From positions 130,417-194,416 of the forward strand of contig JAVBPX010000001.1 of NCBI GenBank assembly GCA_031549365.1: 64,000 bases of DNA, in the 5' to 3' direction. Positions within the stretch are counted from its first letter, which is position 1, and every line of letters starts with the position of its first letter. The translations under genes were made by a program, and so were the position numbers. The notes under the pieces are model-generated. The model saw only the letters and a program-made list of their open reading frames with translations, was not told the origin of the DNA and made no database searches. Source of the DNA: Alphaproteobacteria bacterium (GTDB lineage: Bacteria; Pseudomonadota; Alphaproteobacteria; Rs-D84). Positions 15,650 to 25,439 of the stretch are shown here, in pieces.

Positions 15650-15800
15650 ACTTAAATCCTTTTTATAACGGCTTATATTATAATCCCCCTCCCCAATAAT
15701 GCAAGAGGATTTAACCATCCTGTTAATTCAAGCCCTTGAAATATTTTTATTGAACTGTTATAATTCGCCCAATACCAAAGGTATGCATTTGGGGAATAAC

Positions 15801-17365: not shown

Positions 17366-17457
17366 GGAGAGGTGGCAGAGCCCGGTTGAATGCGCTCGAC
17401 TCGAAATCGAGTATACTGGCGACAGTATCGGGGGTTCGAATCCCCCCCTCTCCGCCA
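17366..17457 (+). tRNA. tRNA-Ser (anticodon CGA)
   Basis: Cloverleaf with acceptor GGAGAGG/CCTCTCC, long variable arm, anticodon stem ctcga/tcgag, loop 'ctCGAaa', T-loop GGTTCGAATCC. Discriminator G and CCA are encoded. Confidence 0.9.
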
Positions 17458-17512
17458 GACAAGATATTGATTTTACTACAATTTTTTACAAAATCGATAA
17501 CCCTTGAATTAT

Positions 17513-17535
17513 CCCCGGAATTCGGGGATTTTTTT
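17513..17535 (+). terminator. Rho-independent terminator downstream of tRNA-Ser
   Basis: 'ccccggaattcgggg' hairpin followed by a T7 run. Confidence 0.6.
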
Positions 17536-17672
17536 GATGCGATTTTAAGGTTATTGCAATGGTATGTGATTTAATATGTGAAAATACGGCGATATTTTGA
17601 TGTTTACATACAATGCCCGTTTTTGGCAGTGCACTGTTCATTGGTGCGAGGAAATTTTAAGGGAGTTTATTA

Positions 17673-17701
17673 TTGACTTTTTTGATGATTTGTGGTATAA
17701 T
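17673..17701 (+). promoter_or_regulatory. Consensus sigma70 promoter: -35 TTGACT, 17-bp spacer, extended -10 TGgTATAAT
   Basis: 'TTGACT tttttgatgatttgtgg TATAAT' at 17673-17701. Both hexamers match consensus perfectly with optimal spacing and a TG extension. Confidence 0.55.
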
Positions 17702-17714
17702 GCAGAGTATATTA

Positions 17715-17776
17715 GGACGGATTTTATCCGTCTTTTTTAATTTTAGTCCCGCTATTTTTGGCGGGGCTTTTTTTTA
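17715..17776 (+). terminator. Two tandem intrinsic-terminator hairpins in the leader (possible sRNA or attenuator)
   Basis: Hairpin 1 is 'gacgg attttat ccgtc' followed by T6. Hairpin 2 is 'gtcccgc tatttttg gcggggc' followed by T9. Both lie between the consensus promoter and the SD 'aagggag' of the ORF at 17795. Confidence 0.5.
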
Positions 17777-17794
17777 TATTTTTAAGGGAGTAAT

Positions 17795-18574
17795 ATGAAA
17801 AATAATTTTTTTAACGAACAATCTTTAAATTCTGATATTAAAACTCAGATTATCTTAGCTACATTTAAACTTTGGCTTCAAGACAATAAAAAGGAACAAA
17901 ATCTATCTTATATTGATCTATTTTCAGGGCCTGGCATATATGATGATGGAACATTATCTACACCGATATGTATTTTACAGGAAATTTGCAATAATAAGAG
18001 AATGGCACAGAGATTCAATGTGATCTTAAATGATTATAATGCAGAATTTATTGCAAAATTGCGTCGTATGATTTTGAATGTGAAAAATGCTAGGTTTATA
18101 AAAACTTTGGTTACTTCGATTGGTAATGCTGAAAGTTTTCAAAAGACCGTATCTAATAATGAACATATCTTCATGTTAATTGATCCTTGGGGATGGAAGG
18201 GTATAAATAGAAATTATATTAATAATATGTTATTAAATAAGGACTGTGATATTGCGGTGATGTTTAATTTTAATCAGTTTAATCGGTTTATGAATTTTGA
18301 TATCGCAGATGAATTGTTTAATGATTTGTTTGATAAAAAAACTTTGCACGAAATACGTAAATTTTGTAGCACAAATCCAAAATCGGAAAGAGAACAATTC
18401 GTGATAGATAAATTTGTGAAAATGGTTTGTAAAAATTGTGAAAATTGTAATTACACGCCATTTAAATTTAAGATGGAAAAATCGACGCGTACAAGCCATT
18501 ATATTATTTTTATAATTCGTGATAAAGATAGATTTCAAGCAACGAAAACTTTGTTAAATCAATACTTGGCTTGA
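17795..18574 (+). CDS. Hypothetical protein, candidate three-Cys-motif partner protein (TcmP-like) with a methyltransferase-like 'DLFSGPG' motif
   Basis: 259 aa. Good SD 'aagggag' 7 nt upstream. 'YIDLFSGPGIY' resembles SAM-MTase motif I and 'IDPWGWKG' is a possible motif-IV-like element. Directly upstream of a Gp37/Gp68 (DUF5131) gene. Confidence 0.5.
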   Translation: MKNNFFNEQSLNSDIKTQIILATFKLWLQDNKKEQNLSYIDLFSGPGIYDDGTLSTPICILQEICNNKRMAQRFNVILNDYNAEFIAKLRRMILNVKNARFIKTLVTSIGNAESFQKTVSNNEHIFMLIDPWGWKGINRNYINNMLLNKDCDIAVMFNFNQFNRFMNFDIADELFNDLFDKKTLHEIRKFCSTNPKSEREQFVIDKFVKMVCKNCENCNYTPFKFKMEKSTRTSHYIIFIIRDKDRFQATKTLLNQYLA

Positions 18575-18605
18575 AAAATAATATCGTTTCTGGCATAATG
18601 TGAAT

Positions 18606-19340
18606 ATGGCAGAAAAATCTAAACTTGAATGGACGGATGCAACGTGGAACCCAGTTGTTGGATGTACAAAGTACAGCGATGGGTGTATAAATTGTTATGC
18701 AAAACCAATTGCAGAACGTTTGTGTAGACAAGGAGTTTTTGGATACGAAAATGGTTTTAAAATGACATTGCGTCCAGAGCGTTTGGAAATTCCATTGCAT
18801 TGGAAAAAACCAAGATTAATATTTGTAGACTCCATGTGCGATTTATTTCACGATGATGTGCCATTAGAATATATTCAGAAAGTTTTTGCAATAATGAAGC
18901 GTGCAGATTGGCATGTTTATACCATATTAACAAAACGATCAAAGCGTTTGCGTGAATTGGCGTCAAACCTTGAATGGATGCCGCATGTTGTAATGGGTGT
19001 AACGATTGAATCCGATAAATATCGTGATAGGCTGGATGATTTGAAGGCTGTGCCTGCATATATGCGATATTTATCATTGGAGCCATTGTTGGGACCAATT
19101 AACCGATTGGATTTGGATGGAATTGATTGGGTTATTGCTGGTGGAGAATCCGGACCAAATGCACGGCAACTGGATACAAATTGGGTCAGAGAAATTCGCG
19201 ATTGGACATTGGAACAAAAAGCTGCGTTTTGGTTTAAACAGTATAGCGAGTATGGGGGACAGCATAAAGACCCTATTTTAGATGGGGAAAAATATAAGCA
19301 ATTTCCAGATTTTAAAACCGGAAAACCGAGTCTGTTTTAA
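18606..19340 (+). CDS. Phage Gp37/Gp68-family protein (DUF5131, three-Cys-motif protein)
   Basis: N-terminal 'KLEWTDATWNPVVGCTKYSDGCINCYA' matches the hallmark family start, a Cx6CxxC three-Cys motif right after 'WNP..GC'. The ATG at 18606 is preferred over the GTG at 18600. Confidence 0.6.
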   Translation: MAEKSKLEWTDATWNPVVGCTKYSDGCINCYAKPIAERLCRQGVFGYENGFKMTLRPERLEIPLHWKKPRLIFVDSMCDLFHDDVPLEYIQKVFAIMKRADWHVYTILTKRSKRLRELASNLEWMPHVVMGVTIESDKYRDRLDDLKAVPAYMRYLSLEPLLGPINRLDLDGIDWVIAGGESGPNARQLDTNWVREIRDWTLEQKAAFWFKQYSEYGGQHKDPILDGEKYKQFPDFKTGKPSLF

Positions 19341-19859
19341 TGGCAATGATTTATACAATCGGTTTTAGTGGAAAAACAGCGGACATTTTTACGGATGTTC
19401 TGGATGCTGTTGGTGTCAAAAAATTGATTGATATTCGTTTATGGCGGGCGTCACGATTTGTTCCATGGGCATCGGGTGCAAATTTGCAGAAACTTTTGGG
19501 TGACAAATATTGTTATATGCCGGAATTGACACCAACAAAATGAAGAAATTATTAAAAAGATAAATTATCGTCTGGGTACAAATGCGGATAAAATAAAACT
19601 CATTGAAAAAAACTATAATCGTCCGAATATTGAAGAATATTTGCAAATGTTTTCAAAAAACATGGATGGAGTAGATGAGACCAGAATTGCCCACTTTTAT
19701 TTGAAATATTGCGATTTCAAACATTCCAATGTACTGACGTGTTTAGAAGGACAAATACTTGATTTTCAGGTTGAACGCGTTATTACAGTAATGGTTATGC
19801 TTGTTACATATTTGAGTATGGCAAAATTAGAGCCCTATGTACATCCTGTCGGTATTTAA
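19340..19859 (+). pseudogene. DUF488 (YeaO-like) gene disrupted by a frameshift near 19525-19545
   Basis: ORF 19340-19543 encodes the DUF488 N-terminus ('MIYTIGFSGKT...LIDIRLWRASR...PELTPTK*'). The continuation is in another frame from about 19530 to 19859 ('EEIIKKINYRLG...LQMFSKNMDG...'). Confidence 0.5.
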
Positions 19860-19971: not shown

Positions 19972-21564
19972 ATGTCGGATAACAATGCCATTCATTGGGC
20001 GGATTTTATTGCAGAGCGAATAATTCGTGAAAAAGGCGATAAAGATTTATATACTTTGGCCAGCGGAATTACCCCGTCTGGGACAATTCATATTGGAAAA
20101 TTTCGCGAGATTATAACCACCGAATTGGTGTCCCGGGCGTTGGTTCGCATGGGGAAAAAGGTACGTTTTATTTATTCTTGGGATGATTATGATACTTTTC
20201 GCAAAGTGCCGGGCGATATGCCACAGCAAGAGATGTTAAAAGAATTATTGTATCAGCCGATTGTCGATATTCCAGATGTTTACGGAACAGAAAGTTCTTA
20301 TGCTCGGCATAACGAAGTGTCGTTGGAACGTATTGCTCCGGTATTGGGCATAACAAATATTGAATTTATTTATCAAAGTCGGATGTATCGTAGTGGCGAA
20401 TATAATGATTTGATTATAAAGGTTATGGATTCGCGAGATAAAATTCGTGATATTTTACAGACATCTAAAAGCCAGGGGATGGATGAAGAGTTTTATCCTA
20501 TTGCAACTTATTGCAGCAATTGCAATCGTGACCGAATTGTTTTTTCAAATTATAATACATCAGATAAAACAGTTGATTATAAGTGTAAGTTATGCAACCA
20601 CACGGAAAAGTTAAATTTACGCGATTCAAGGCGGCTGAAATTGCCTTGGCGAATTGATTGGCCAATGCGTTGGGCATTTGAAAATGTTGATTTTGAACCA
20701 GGTGGGACAGATCATTCTTCGGCTGGGGGCAGTTTTGATACCAGCAAAGTAATCGTTAGTGAGATTTTTGGAGGGGCGTCTCCGGTTTATGCAAAATATG
20801 CATTTGTATTGCCAAAGGGTGAAAGCAAAAAGATGTCTTCGTCAATTGGTAACGGGTTTTCTGTGGAAAGCGTTTTGCAGGTTTATGAACCAGAAATGAT
20901 ACGTTGGTTTTTTGCTTCGTATAAACCAGATGCGCAGTTCAGTATGGCTTTTGACATTGATGTTTTGAAGAATTACGAAGCATTTGACCGAATGGAACGC
21001 GTGGTTTATGGATTGGAAGATGTGAATGATGACAGGCGTGCAGTGCAGCGGCGTATTTATGAAATGTCTCAGATAAATTTTGATGGAAAGATTCCGGAAC
21101 AGATGCCTTTTCAGCCGAGTTTTAGGCACCTGTGTAATCAGTTGCAAATAAACGAATTTGATATCGAAAAAACCAGAGCATATTACGCCCACCAAATCAA
21201 AAATGACATCGATGAACAACGGTATCAAGAAAGGTCCAAATGCGCAGTATTTTGGATACAAAATTGTGCTTCGGATGATTTCAAACTTATATTGAATTCC
21301 GAAAAACGCAATGACATGACATTGTCGACAGATGAAAAAAAGTTCGTGAATGACTTGCACAAAATGTTGGAGATTGATTGGGACAATTTAGATGACGAAC
21401 GCGTCTTACAAAGTAAGGTCGGTGAATTAATTAAGGCCAACGGATTGGAAGTACTAAATGCGTATAAACTGTTATATCAGTTACTGGTCAATCGGGACCA
21501 AGGACCAAAGCTGGCCGGATTTATTTTGGGTATTGGCAAGGATAAGATTCTGAATTTGTTGTAA
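19972..21564 (+). CDS. lysK: Lysyl-tRNA synthetase, class I
   Basis: 530 aa. HIGH-type motif 'PSGTIHIGKFRE' and KMSKS-type motif 'KMSSSIGNG'. Architecture is typical of class I LysRS as found in alphaproteobacteria and archaea. Confidence 0.85.
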   Translation: MSDNNAIHWADFIAERIIREKGDKDLYTLASGITPSGTIHIGKFREIITTELVSRALVRMGKKVRFIYSWDDYDTFRKVPGDMPQQEMLKELLYQPIVDIPDVYGTESSYARHNEVSLERIAPVLGITNIEFIYQSRMYRSGEYNDLIIKVMDSRDKIRDILQTSKSQGMDEEFYPIATYCSNCNRDRIVFSNYNTSDKTVDYKCKLCNHTEKLNLRDSRRLKLPWRIDWPMRWAFENVDFEPGGTDHSSAGGSFDTSKVIVSEIFGGASPVYAKYAFVLPKGESKKMSSSIGNGFSVESVLQVYEPEMIRWFFASYKPDAQFSMAFDIDVLKNYEAFDRMERVVYGLEDVNDDRRAVQRRIYEMSQINFDGKIPEQMPFQPSFRHLCNQLQINEFDIEKTRAYYAHQIKNDIDEQRYQERSKCAVFWIQNCASDDFKLILNSEKRNDMTLSTDEKKFVNDLHKMLEIDWDNLDDERVLQSKVGELIKANGLEVLNAYKLLYQLLVNRDQGPKLAGFILGIGKDKILNLL

Positions 21565-23844: not shown

Positions 23845-25344
23845 TTATCTCAACTTTATTTTTTTTAACATGGGAAATGTTAAAACATCTCTGATATTAG
23901 ATGAGTTTGTTAACATCATGGCGAGGCGATCTGCACCTATTCCCATGCCTCCTGTAGGGGGCATACCGTATTCTAAAGCTGTAAGAAAGGCTTCATCCAT
24001 TTGCATTGCTTCAGGATCATCTGAAAGAGATGCTTGTTCTTCGAATTTTTTTCTTTGATCTATTGGATTTGATAATTCTGAGTAAGCTTCACCAAATTCA
24101 ATGCCGCCAACATAGAGCATAAATCTTTCAGAAAGACGTGGGTTTTGTCGATGTATTTTTGTCAGCGGAGATATATCATATGGAACATCCATTACGAAAG
24201 TTGGTTGAATAAGAGTTTTTTCGACTTTTTCTTCAAATATAGTTTCTACTACTTTACCCCAAGATTCAGTTCCCTTGAGTCGAATTTTGTGTTTTTGGGC
24301 AATGCTATGAATTTCCCTATCGCTCATGTTTATAAGATCTTCGTTCAGCGCTTCTGATGCTGCGTCTACCATTGGTAATCTTTTAAATGGTTTTTCAAGG
24401 TCTATTAAGGCATCTTTCCAAGTAATGTGGAGAGAGCTGTTGACAGCCATAGATGAATCTCGCAGCAATCTTTCTGCGAGAATCATCATGTCAAAATAGT
24501 CTTTATAAGAGCCATATATATCTAGCATTGTGAATTCTGGACTGTGGCGATTATCAATACCTTCATTGCGGAAATTTTTACCAATTTCAAACACTCGAGG
24601 AATGCCTCCAACAATGAGCCGCTTTAGTTCAAGTTCAGATGCTATCCTGAGATAAAAATCGTCTTTAAGAGAATTATAATGTGTAGTAAATGGAGCAGCA
24701 TTTGCACCGGCTTTTACTGGGTGAAGTATAGGTGTTTCTACCTCTATATATCCCTCATCGTGCATTACTTCGCGTATAGCATACATTGCTTTCGCCCTAT
24801 TGAGAACAACATCCCGAGAGTTTTTGTTTACTATAAGATCTACGGATTTATTGCGGTATCTTTCTTCGGAGTCTGTTAGACCGTGGTATTTTTCAGGAAG
24901 AATATTCAATGATTTTGACAGCATTGTTACTTCCAGAGGAGTAACAGAAACTGCTCCTCGCAAAGTTTTTTTAATTCCTCCCAAAACACCAATTATATCA
25001 CCAATGTCAAGATTTTTAAGCATGTTATTAAATTGTGTATCTGCTTTTGGATTTTCATTGCAAATTTGAATTTTTCCGGATTCATCTTCAACATCGATGA
25101 ACATTCCGGAATTTCGGATTGCCATAATTCTTCCTGCAATTTTTACAATGTCTTTTGTATCCGCTGTCTTTTCACCAGGTTGAAGGTGGCCAAATTCAGC
25201 TATTATATTACTGGCAAGATGCGTTGGTTTGTATATGTGTGGATATGCGTTTATTCCTTGAGATTCGATGTCTTTAAGTTTTTGAATCCTTATTTCTTTT
25301 AAAGAATTTATTGGTGTCTTATTATCTTTTTTTTGATTTTGCAT
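23845..25344 (-). CDS. lysS: Lysyl-tRNA synthetase, class II (full length, with N-terminal anticodon-binding OB fold)
   Basis: 499 aa. Class II motif 1 'RVFEIGKNFRNEG', motif 2 'HSPEFTMLDIY', motif 3 'GGMGIGADRLAMMLT'. N-terminal OB-fold region 'KIAGRIMAIRNSGMFIDVEDESGKIQICNE'. AGA/AGG/GGA/ACA-rich codon usage unlike neighbouring core genes. Confidence 0.85.
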   Translation of the reverse strand: MQNQKKDNKTPINSLKEIRIQKLKDIESQGINAYPHIYKPTHLASNIIAEFGHLQPGEKTADTKDIVKIAGRIMAIRNSGMFIDVEDESGKIQICNENPKADTQFNNMLKNLDIGDIIGVLGGIKKTLRGAVSVTPLEVTMLSKSLNILPEKYHGLTDSEERYRNKSVDLIVNKNSRDVVLNRAKAMYAIREVMHDEGYIEVETPILHPVKAGANAAPFTTHYNSLKDDFYLRIASELELKRLIVGGIPRVFEIGKNFRNEGIDNRHSPEFTMLDIYGSYKDYFDMMILAERLLRDSSMAVNSSLHITWKDALIDLEKPFKRLPMVDAASEALNEDLINMSDREIHSIAQKHKIRLKGTESWGKVVETIFEEKVEKTLIQPTFVMDVPYDISPLTKIHRQNPRLSERFMLYVGGIEFGEAYSELSNPIDQRKKFEEQASLSDDPEAMQMDEAFLTALEYGMPPTGGMGIGADRLAMMLTNSSNIRDVLTFPMLKKIKLR

Positions 25345-25366: not shown

Positions 25367-25439
25367 TGGGGGGCGGTCCGGATTTGAACCGTACCTCTGA
25401 GGGAAAACTCAGCGTTCTGCCTAATTATACTACCCGCCC
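25367..25439 (-). tRNA. Aberrant tRNA-like element (degenerate cloverleaf, 6-nt anticodon loop TTTTCC). Either a pseudo-tRNA or a non-canonical tRNA.
   Basis: Minus-strand sequence GGGCGGGTAGTATAATTAGGCAGAACGCTGAGTTTTCCCTCAGAGGTACGGTTCAAATCCGGACCGCCCCCCA. Canonical T-loop GGTTCAAATCC. Acceptor 6/7 pairs. 3' C-CCA encoded. Anticodon stem CTGAG/CTCAG with only 6 loop nt. D-stem and T-stem each carry a mismatch. Confidence 0.4.

What the first reader, a model, noticed from the sequence alone, without database searches (positions are those of the whole stretch)
17673..17776. Perfect-consensus extended sigma70 promoter feeding two tandem terminators, a candidate small RNA or attenuator ahead of the TcmP-like gene
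Seen in sequence:
- TTGACT, a 17-bp spacer and TGgTATAAT at 17673-17701.
- Then, within about 70 nt, two GC-stem hairpins each followed by a U-run (17715-17740 and 17746-17776).
- Only after these come an SD and the ATG at 17795.

In an AT-rich genome a textbook promoter with this geometry is conspicuous. The short transcript could be a 35-70-nt sRNA, or a transcriptional attenuator controlling the downstream module. It could also help terminate read-through from tRNA-Ser.
Basis: seen in the sequence. Interest (0 to 1): 0.55.

Follow-up and report, generated by a model that had tools for sequence, protein, structure and literature searches.

The report
Conserved promoter-terminator leader of TcmP cassette
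A near-textbook promoter followed within 70 bases by two terminator hairpins is a real, evolutionarily conserved control module. It travels with a small mobile two-gene cassette (TcmP plus a radical-SAM-like DUF5131 protein) in uncultured alphaproteobacteria, and most likely keeps that cassette expressed at a low, self-contained level.

Summary
TTGACT, a 17-nt spacer and TGgTATAAT lie at 17673-17701. Two GC-stem hairpins with U-runs follow (H1 17714-17734, H2 17745-17768), then a Shine-Dalgarno (SD) site and the tcmP ATG at 17795.

This is far more than chance:
- Only 2 promoters of this quality occur in 64 kb, against 0.17 expected.
- Only 7 stringent terminators occur, against 1.4 expected, and 3 of them lie here.

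The decisive evidence is comparative. Eleven tcmP-DUF5131 cassettes with 44-63% TcmP identity sit in unrelated genomic contexts, yet all carry the same layout. One further copy precedes a different cargo gene.
- The promoter is conserved in sequence.
- The stems are conserved only in pairing: 94.5% of cells paired, and compensatory changes at all 11 modelled pairs.
- H2 plus its U-run is always present. H1 has a U-run in about two-thirds of the copies.

The module has no leader peptide, no alternative antiterminator fold, no tandem repeats and no Rfam family.

The best reading is a cassette-borne, self-contained expression module: a strong promoter, a 5' hairpin and one or two leaky intrinsic terminators that throttle tcmP-DUF5131. 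A functional ~35/~70-nt RNA, or factor-dependent antitermination, is not excluded.

It is a new member of a known kind and of moderate interest.

The parts
17366..17457 (+). tRNA-Ser(CGA). It is genomic context: the cassette lies directly downstream of it on the same strand.
   Evidence: ARAGORN; Rfam tRNA model at 57.7 bits.
17511..17535 (+). The tRNA-Ser gene's own intrinsic terminator: an 8-bp stem with 5 GC pairs, followed by U6-7.
   Evidence: (dG -11.1 kcal/mol).
17536..17672 (+). Upstream block of unknown role, partly homologous to the regions upstream of the L002, L015 and L013 cassettes. Shared motifs are TTGACTATGGTATA-like and TATACAATG.
   Evidence: MAFFT alignment A3.
17673..17701 (+). 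Extended -10 sigma-70-type promoter: -35 TTGACT (17673-17678), a 17-nt spacer with TRTG/TGn (17691-17695), and -10 TATAAT (17696-17701).
   Evidence: The sequence is conserved in 13 related loci.
17706..17709 (+). Predicted transcription start, 5-8 nt after the -10. This is inferred, not measured.
   Evidence: Inferred from standard sigma-70 promoter geometry; the sequence is.
17714..17743 (+). Hairpin H1 (17714-17734; 9 bp, dG -10.2 kcal/mol) with a U-rich tail. It is a 5'-proximal hairpin and the first intrinsic terminator.
   Evidence: Covariation in helix 1 of A9: 95.8% of cells paired.
17745..17776 (+). Hairpin H2 (17745-17768; 10 bp, 6 GC pairs, dG -16.7 kcal/mol) plus a U8 tract. It is a strong intrinsic terminator and is present in all 12 modules.
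   Evidence: Helix 2 of A9: 92.9% of cells paired.
17784..17797 (+). Shine-Dalgarno site AAGGGAG and the ATG start codon of tcmP.
   Evidence: The N-terminus aligns with homologues.
17795..18574 (+). tcmP, encoding the three-Cys-motif partner protein (259 aa).
   Evidence: TIGR04474 at 88.8 bits, cut-off 53. PADLOC PDC-M30A.
18600..19340 (+). DUF5131 gene (Gp37/Gp68 family, radical-SAM-like). The probable start is the ATG at 18606.
   Evidence: PF07505 at 278.7 bits. PADLOC PDC-M30B/M41B. Called gene start in L001.
19340..19543 (+). Truncated DUF488 ORF (67 aa), probably a decayed third gene of the cassette.
   Evidence: PF04343 at 29.4 bits over profile positions 5-57 of 121. An intact homologue follows DUF5131 in L008.

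Best explanation
The segment is the built-in expression module of a small mobile cassette (tcmP-DUF5131, with or without DUF488).

Proposed mechanism:
1. A near-consensus extended -10 promoter starts transcription at about 17707.
2. The nascent RNA at once forms a 5'-terminal hairpin (H1). In this copy H1 is itself followed by a U-run.
3. A strong intrinsic terminator (H2 plus U8) follows. Most transcripts therefore end after about 35 or about 70 nt.
4. Only the fraction that reads through both hairpins reaches the SD site and tcmP.

The net effect is a fixed, low level of expression that does not depend on the host. The same terminators also damp transcription running in from the highly expressed tRNA gene upstream. 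H1 is expected to protect the 5' end of whatever RNA is made.

Shown: the sequence elements, their rarity, their conservation and covariation, and the lack of room for another promoter.

Inferred: the transcription start, actual termination, the read-through fraction, and the purpose (throttling a possibly harmful candidate-defence pair).
For: - The elements are present and rare, and the fold has z = -7.1.
- The same layout occurs upstream of tcmP in 11 distinct loci with 44-63% TcmP identity and unrelated neighbours: TTGAYT, a 17-nt spacer with TGn, a -10, H1, H2 plus a U-run, SD and ATG.
- Model R1, built from three foreign loci, recovers the window at E 5e-6. Model R2 recovers four loci it was not trained on.
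- Covariation: 94.5% of cells are paired, against 40-54% when the partners are slid. All 11 pairs show changes on both sides, and 0 of 500 shuffles reach this.
- A purely sequence-based alignment of three close relatives already shows UA to CG and GC to AU swaps, plus G-U wobbles. Wobbles point to an RNA structure on the + strand.
- L022 keeps the promoter and the gene but has no hairpins. The promoter therefore serves tcmP, and the hairpins modulate it.
- L010 carries a second copy of the module in front of a different cargo gene. It behaves as a generic expression module, not a TcmP-specific RNA partner.
- Loops and single-stranded stretches are not conserved. H2 stability ranges from -2.6 to -16.7 kcal/mol across the family, as expected if read-through is being tuned.
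- The pair lacks the module where it sits inside a phage-like gene array (L004).
Against: - There are no transcript data for this uncultured organism. The start site, termination and read-through are all inferred.
- A weak promoter would achieve low expression more simply. Keeping a strong promoter together with a terminator hints that the short RNA, or regulated read-through, may matter.
- Two strong terminators in tandem in this copy might silence the genes almost completely.
- The CM-derived alignments lean towards the modelled structure.
- H1 is not a terminator in 4 of 12 modules, so its role is less clear.
Confidence: 0.55

Rival explanations
1. The product that matters is the short RNA itself: about 35 nt ending after H1, or about 70 nt ending after H2. 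It would be an abundant, stable two-hairpin RNA acting in trans or as a partner of TcmP/DUF5131. One example would be an antitoxin or regulator as in type III toxin-antitoxin operons, where a terminator between the RNA and the protein gene sets their ratio.
For: - A strong promoter with strong terminators predicts a large excess of the short RNA.
- The shape (5' stretch, hairpin, AU-rich linker, terminator with a U tail) resembles Hfq-type sRNAs. It gives sub-threshold Rfam hits to several: ncS54 at 28.5 bits against a gathering cut-off of 43, and GcvB at 27.6 against 42.
- The RNA-terminator-gene order matches the ToxIN layout (from general knowledge).
- TcmP/DUF5131 match the PADLOC defence candidates PDC-M30A/B.
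Against: - No primary-sequence conservation outside the promoter, so no shared seed or protein-binding motif.
- No tandem repeats.
- The module also precedes an unrelated cargo gene in L010.
- L022 has the gene and the promoter without any hairpin RNA.
- No Rfam family reaches its threshold.
Confidence: 0.2
2. A conditional switch. H1 acts as a loading or recognition hairpin, in the manner of lambda nut, HK022 put or a RAT site. Read-through of H2 would then be turned on by a factor or a state of the cell, for example a phage antiterminator or modified RNA polymerase during infection. The candidate defence pair would be induced only then.
For: - The conserved order promoter, hairpin, terminator, genes is the same as in processive antitermination systems (from general knowledge).
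- In 4 of 12 modules H1 is a plain hairpin without a U-run placed just before the terminator.
- Several cassettes lie in defence-island-like surroundings: GmrSD, HEPN and SRA-HNH in L012, and Fic and HigB in L148.
Against: - H1 has no conserved loop or boxA/boxB-like sequence.
- The cassette encodes no antiterminator.
- No alternative fold competes with H2. The minimum-free-energy and centroid structures both keep the two hairpins.
- The idea is wholly speculative without expression data.
Confidence: 0.12
3. The hairpins serve the neighbourhood rather than the cassette. They would be terminators or insulators for the upstream tRNA gene, or DNA-level hairpins used for insertion of the cassette. 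On this reading the promoter match is incidental.
For: - Five independent cassette contexts lie 9-215 nt downstream of a tRNA gene on the same strand: Ser, Ala, Lys, Arg-TCT and Arg-ACG.
- In L021 and L151 no other terminator separates the tRNA from the module.
Against: - In the window the tRNA has its own terminator.
- The promoter is the most sequence-conserved part of the module and always lies upstream of the hairpins.
- Modules also occur with no tRNA nearby: L006, L008, L010 and L148.
- G-U wobble pairs and one-sided U-runs indicate an RNA-level structure on the + strand.
Confidence: 0.06
4. The region encodes a small hydrophobic protein: the 41-aa ORF at 17673-17798, which ends in an ATGA overlap with tcmP. 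The 'promoter' and 'hairpins' would then be coding sequence.
For: - The ORF exists. It starts at the TTG of the -35, with an AAGGGAG sequence 7 nt upstream.
- Its stop codon overlaps the tcmP start codon.
Against: - The ORF is not conserved. In most of the related modules all three reading frames across the leader contain stop codons.
- Its hydrophobicity follows from the T-rich sequence.
- Substitutions preserve base pairing, not codons.
Confidence: 0.02

Closest known systems
Promoter-proximal intrinsic terminators acting as attenuators, in leader regions such as trp or pyrBI or in riboswitch expression platforms
   Same: A sigma-70 promoter is followed by a GC-rich hairpin plus U-tract placed before the SD site of the first gene. 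Downstream expression therefore equals read-through.
   Different: - No leader peptide: the transcript contains no ATG, and the overlapping ORF is not conserved.
- No competing antiterminator fold.
- No aptamer. The whole leader is only about 70 nt.
- No Rfam match.
- It looks constitutive rather than sensing.
Type III toxin-antitoxin operons (ToxIN, CptIN, TenpIN)
   Same: A constitutive promoter drives a short structured RNA. An intrinsic terminator lies between that RNA and the protein gene. The system is carried on mobile or defence-associated DNA.
   Different: - No tandem RNA repeats.
- The downstream proteins are TcmP and DUF5131, not ToxN/AbiQ-type endoribonucleases.
- The RNA sequence is not conserved.
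- The same module also precedes another cargo gene.
Processive antitermination sites (lambda N/nut, HK022 put)
   Same: The order is the same: promoter, RNA hairpin, terminator, genes.
   Different: - No boxA/boxB or put consensus.
- No N- or Q-like gene.
- In this copy H1 is itself a terminator.
5'-terminal stabiliser hairpins (ompA 5' UTR, ermC and aprE leaders)
   Same: H1 begins within about 2-10 nt of the predicted 5' end in every module.
   Different: In about two-thirds of the modules H1 carries a U-run, which a pure stabiliser does not need.
Rfam sRNA families with a two-hairpin terminator shape (ncS54, the 3' part of GcvB, Spot 42)
   Same: The overall shape matches: a hairpin, a U/A-rich linker, and a terminator with a U tail.
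   Different: All scores fall below the gathering cut-offs: 28.5 against 43, 27.6 against 42, and 20.7 against 80. These are resemblances of shape only.

Membership tests
Sigma-70-type extended -10 promoter | -35 hexamer close to TTGACA, a 17 +/- 1 nt spacer, a TGn (TRTG) extension, and a -10 hexamer TATAAT | tested here: met
   TTGACT (5/6), a 17-nt spacer, TGTGg, and TATAAT (6/6). It is one of only 2 such sites in 64 kb. The sequence is conserved in 13 related loci.
Sigma-70-type extended -10 promoter | Transcription actually starts 5-9 nt downstream of the -10 | not testable with these tools
   No transcript data are available. The organism is uncultured and known only from metagenome contigs.
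Intrinsic (Rho-independent) terminator | A GC-rich stem-loop followed immediately by a U-tract on the transcribed strand | tested here: met
   H1: 9 bp, -10.2 kcal/mol, 6 U in 8. H2: 10 bp, -16.7 kcal/mol, 7 U in 8. H2 plus a U-run is present in 12 of 12 modules, and H1 plus a U-run in 8 of 12.
Intrinsic (Rho-independent) terminator | Measured release of transcripts at the U-tract | not testable with these tools
   This needs in vitro transcription or Term-seq.
Leader-peptide attenuator (trp or pyrBI type) | A conserved short ORF in the leader, plus mutually exclusive terminator and antiterminator folds | tested here: not met
   The predicted transcript has no ATG. The 41-aa ORF that starts in the -35 is broken by stop codons in most relatives. 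The minimum-free-energy and centroid folds keep both hairpins, and no competing helix appears.
Riboswitch, T-box or other curated cis-regulatory RNA (Rfam 15) | A match to a family covariance model at its gathering score | tested here: not met
   Only tRNAs reach the gathering score in the window. The best sub-threshold hit over the leader is 28.5 bits against 43.
Type III toxin-antitoxin (ToxIN-like) | Tandem direct repeats encoding the antitoxin RNA | tested here: not met
   Tandem Repeats Finder gives no rows for 17400-17850.
Type III toxin-antitoxin (ToxIN-like) | An intrinsic terminator between the RNA and the protein gene | tested here: met
   H2 plus its U8 tract ends 18 nt before the ATG.
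Type III toxin-antitoxin (ToxIN-like) | A ToxN/AbiQ-type endoribonuclease encoded downstream | tested here: not met
   The downstream protein matches no Pfam family. It matches TIGR04474 (TcmP), and the next gene is PF07505 (DUF5131).
TcmP-DUF5131 mobile pair (PADLOC candidate PDC-M30) | A TIGR04474 protein adjacent to a PF07505 protein on the same strand | tested here: met
   TIGR04474 at 88.8 bits (cut-off 53) and PF07505 at 278.7 bits. PDC-M30A at E 9e-15 and PDC-M30B at E 5e-92. The same pairing is seen in the other loci where a tcmP homologue's downstream gene was recovered.
TcmP-DUF5131 mobile pair (PADLOC candidate PDC-M30) | Demonstrated anti-phage or other activity | not testable with these tools
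   The papers searched hold only annotation-level mentions. No solved structure of a relative exists.

The most novel reading that the evidence does not exclude
The leader may be an integral RNA component, or sensor, of a candidate defence system rather than a throttle. One version: the abundant two-hairpin RNA works with or against TcmP/DUF5131, as in type III toxin-antitoxin systems. The other: the terminators act as a fuse that phage-induced antitermination or RNA polymerase modification overrides, switching the radical-SAM-like pair on only during infection. The whole unit would be a promoter-first cassette that inserts just downstream of tRNA genes and terminators by an unknown route.
Probability: 0.15. 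Interest if true: 0.7.

Novelty: new member of a known kind. Interest (0 to 1): 0.4.

Why it matters
- It shows that a promoter-plus-terminator pattern read by eye is a genuine element under selection, with covariation support, in a lineage that has no cultured members and no transcript data.
- It gives the uncharacterised TcmP-DUF5131 pair (PADLOC candidate PDC-M30) a defined regulatory front end. That front end is also a practical handle. Anyone cloning the pair should know that its native leader probably terminates most transcription. Removing or keeping the leader is an obvious experimental variable.
- The module can serve as a marker for stand-alone copies of the cassette.
- The repeated position just downstream of different tRNA genes points to a site preference of the cassette that is worth explaining.

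Tried and rejected
- Rfam at gathering score and at permissive E-values: nothing beyond shape-level sub-threshold hits to sRNAs.
- The exact-protein contig look-up for the window's own TcmP returned only an identical metagenome contig, so it added no information.
- Attachment-site-type direct repeats of the tRNA-Ser 3' end: only a 16-nt, 88% match 8.5 kb away inside an ORF, judged to be chance.
- The plain MAFFT alignment of nine leaders was not structurally consistent. I replaced it with a CM-guided alignment, and kept the purely sequence-based three-sequence alignment as an unbiased check.
- A scan of viral contigs with the conserved promoter pattern gave at least 120 matches. The covariance model found only promoter-level partial hits among the 80 loci fetched (at most 41 bits, mostly well short of the ~125-nt module). 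The pattern alone is therefore generic, and no phage copy of the module was seen.
- tblastn of TcmP against the annotated phage and plasmid collections gave no match.
- PDB sequence searches for both proteins gave no relatives.
- The literature holds only annotation-level mentions of TcmP and DUF5131.
- The small-ORF reading was rejected by comparison across modules, and the tandem-repeat (ToxI-like) reading.

Full report
**1. What is in the sequence.**
- -35 TTGACT at 17673-17678.
- A 17-nt spacer ending in TGTGg.
- -10 TATAAT at 17696-17701.
- Hairpin H1 at 17714-17734, followed by UUUUAAUUUU.
- Hairpin H2 at 17745-17768, followed by eight U.
- AAGGGAG at 17784-17790, and the ATG at 17795.

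The only correction is that the -35 is 5/6, so the promoter is 11/12 plus the TG extension rather than perfect. The hairpins are stable: -10.2 and -16.7 kcal/mol. The 73-nt leader folds into exactly these two hairpins in both the minimum-free-energy and centroid structures, with z = -7.1 against dinucleotide shuffles.

The upstream tRNA-Ser(CGA) at 17366-17457 has a terminator of its own at 17511-17529.

**2. Is it more than chance?**
- My scan of the whole window on both strands finds only two promoters with at least 11/12 matches and TG, against 0.17 expected.
- It finds only seven stringent terminators, against 1.4 +/- 1.1 expected. Three of these lie in 17511-17768.
- The tool's looser terminator pattern is not enriched by itself: 10 found against 9.7 expected. 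The stringent counts and the comparative evidence therefore carry the weight.

**3. The genes behind it.**
- The next gene is DUF5131 (PF07505) at 278.7 bits.
- Both match the PADLOC candidate system PDC-M30.
- A 67-aa DUF488 fragment follows.
- Neither main protein has a solved relative. The literature holds only annotation-level mentions. DUF5131 is listed as a radical-SAM superfamily subgroup in PMC9477430, and a TcmP gene is listed with Hna in a table of genes upregulated in nolR+ Sinorhizobium in PMC12445080.
- The flanking genes are housekeeping: kdsB upstream and class I lysyl-tRNA synthetase downstream.

**4. Comparative evidence.**
A homologue search gave 19 relatives. I fetched their contigs. 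The tcmP-DUF5131 pair sits among completely different neighbours in each one, so it is a mobile cassette.

Eleven distinct loci with 44-63% TcmP identity carry the same layout immediately upstream of tcmP: TTGAYT, exactly 17 nt with TGn, a -10, a few nucleotides, H1, H2 with a U-run, SD and ATG. These loci are the window, L002, L015, L013, L006, L008, L010, L012, L021, L151 and L148.

The promoter is conserved in sequence (TTGAYTTTT ... TTTGTGRTAT). The stems differ in sequence but keep their pairing.

*Unbiased check.* A purely sequence-based alignment of three close relatives already shows UA to CG and GC to AU swaps, plus C-G to U-G and A-U to G-U wobbles in H1. The wobbles and the one-sided U-runs place the structure in RNA of the + strand.

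*Covariance models.*
- Model R1, built only from those three foreign loci, finds the window's module at 43.1 bits, E 5e-6.
- Model R2, built from eight modules, recovers four it was not trained on: L010:3879, L012, L151 and L148.

*Pair counts.* On the 12-module alignment, 94.5% of cells are paired, against 40-54% with slid partners. All 11 pairs show changes on both sides, and no shuffle out of 500 reaches the observed values. The caveat is that this alignment was fitted to the model's structure.

**5. Informative variants.**
- L022 (41% identity) keeps the promoter and the gene but has a 36-nt leader without hairpins. The promoter therefore exists to transcribe tcmP.
- L004/L016, where the pair lies among phage-like genes, has no module. 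Neither do L018 and L150.
- L010 has a second copy of the module at 2113-2240. Its H2 is nearly the same as that of the tcmP copy, but it precedes a different cargo: a 67-aa Cys-rich ORF and a 128-aa ORF with no Pfam hits. The module is therefore portable and not tied to TcmP.
- H1 is followed by a U-run in 8 of 12 modules. In L002, L015, L013 and L006 it is a plain hairpin.
- H2 stability ranges from -2.6 to -16.7 kcal/mol. The window's copy is the strongest in the family.

**6. What was excluded.**
- No Rfam family reaches threshold.
- There are no tandem repeats.
- The 41-aa ORF at 17673-17798 is not conserved. In most of the related modules all three frames carry stop codons.
- No other copy of the module occurs in the window. 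The next-best hits have E 0.2-0.8.
- The viral contigs contain only generic promoter-like matches.
- The annotated phage and plasmid collections contain no TcmP of this clade.

**7. Mechanism.**
The U-tract of H2 ends 8 nt before the SD site, so no second promoter fits. Every tcmP transcript must pass H1 and H2.

The most economical reading is a self-contained expression module of a mobile cassette.
- A strong, host-independent promoter initiates transcription.
- A 5' hairpin is expected to stabilise the RNA.
- One or two intrinsic terminators let only a fraction of transcripts through. The same terminators also damp transcription running in from upstream.

The arguments for a cis-acting, structure-only role are these:
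- Loops and linkers are not conserved.
- Terminator strength varies across the family.
- The module is re-used before another cargo gene.
- A hairpin-less variant exists.

I put this reading at about 0.55. A functional short RNA (type III toxin-antitoxin-like, or sRNA-like) is at about 0.2, and factor-dependent antitermination at about 0.12. Both remain open because a strong promoter paired with strong terminators is an odd way merely to achieve low expression. None of these readings can be separated without transcript or reporter data.

**8. Link to tRNA genes.**
Five independent cassette contexts lie directly downstream of a tRNA gene on the same strand:
- window: Ser-CGA, 215 nt;
- L002/L015: Ala-GGC, about 160 nt;
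- L013: Lys-CTT, 167 nt;
- L021: Arg-TCT, 9 nt;
- L151: Arg-ACG, 26 nt.

The extra module in L010 starts 2 nt after the terminator of the preceding gene.

In the window, L002, L015 and L013, about 140 nt upstream of the promoter is also homologous. DNA-level homology ends at the DUF5131 stop, or after DUF488.

This points to an insertion preference of the cassette. It is unnecessary in the window, where the tRNA has its own terminator.

**9. Verdict.**
It is a previously undescribed, covariation-supported promoter-leader-terminator module of the TcmP-DUF5131 cassette in uncultured alphaproteobacteria. Source names for relatives are 'MAG: Alphaproteobacteria bacterium' and 'MAG: Rickettsiales bacterium'. 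It is a new member of a well-known kind, the promoter-proximal intrinsic terminator or attenuator. Interest is moderate at 0.4.

Noticed in passing
window 25370-25439 (-): A tRNA-like element lies 24 nt upstream of the class II lysS start (25344). It scores 28.6 bits on the Rfam tRNA model, just under the gathering score of 29. ARAGORN calls it 'tRNA-???' with a two-base anticodon. Its anticodon arm has a 6-nt loop containing UUUU, which is Lys-like. It could be a decayed tRNA-Lys gene, or a tRNA mimic that regulates lysyl-tRNA synthetase.
   Followed up: partly
window 17366-17800; L002, L015, L013, L021, L151: The tcmP-DUF5131 cassette sits directly downstream of five different tRNA genes (Ser, Ala, Lys, Arg-TCT, Arg-ACG), 9-215 nt away and always on the same strand. 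No integrase is nearby. This suggests a site preference by an unknown insertion route.
   Followed up: partly
window 17536-17672; L002:5775-5875; L015; L013: A roughly 140-nt block upstream of the promoter is conserved among the four closest cassettes. Its shared motifs are TTGACTATGGTATA-like and TATACAATG, which form an imperfect inverted repeat. Its role is unknown.
   Followed up: no
L010:2113-2903: A second copy of the promoter-H1-H2 module precedes a 67-aa Cys-rich ORF (CGGECGGC motif) and a 128-aa ORF. Neither ORF has a Pfam match. The module begins 2 nt after the terminator of the upstream epimerase gene.
   Followed up: partly
window 19340-19859: The DUF488 ORF after DUF5131 is cut to 67 aa, whereas the Pfam profile is 121 positions long. 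Intact DUF488 genes accompany the pair in L008 and L148, and a DUF488 fragment lies nearby in L010. DUF488 may be a decaying third component of the cassette.
   Followed up: partly
window 19972-21564 (+) and 23845-25344 (-): Class I (PF01921) and class II-type lysyl-tRNA synthetase genes lie within 4 kb of each other. A nucleotidyltransferase gene and an aldehyde-dehydrogenase-like gene lie between them.
   Followed up: no
window 15736-15764 (+): This is the only other promoter in the window with at least 11/12 matches plus TG (TTGAAA, 17 nt, TATAAT). It lies inside the listed start of the HAD-hydrolase ORF (15699). That gene probably starts further downstream, near the MAIKNIFWDVDG sequence, and is probably driven by this promoter.
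   Followed up: no
L148:2467-3445: In this locus the module is intact, but tcmP is interrupted by a stop codon about 28 codons in, and the called gene restarts at 2774. The neighbours are Fic, DUF488 and HigB-like genes.
   Followed up: no
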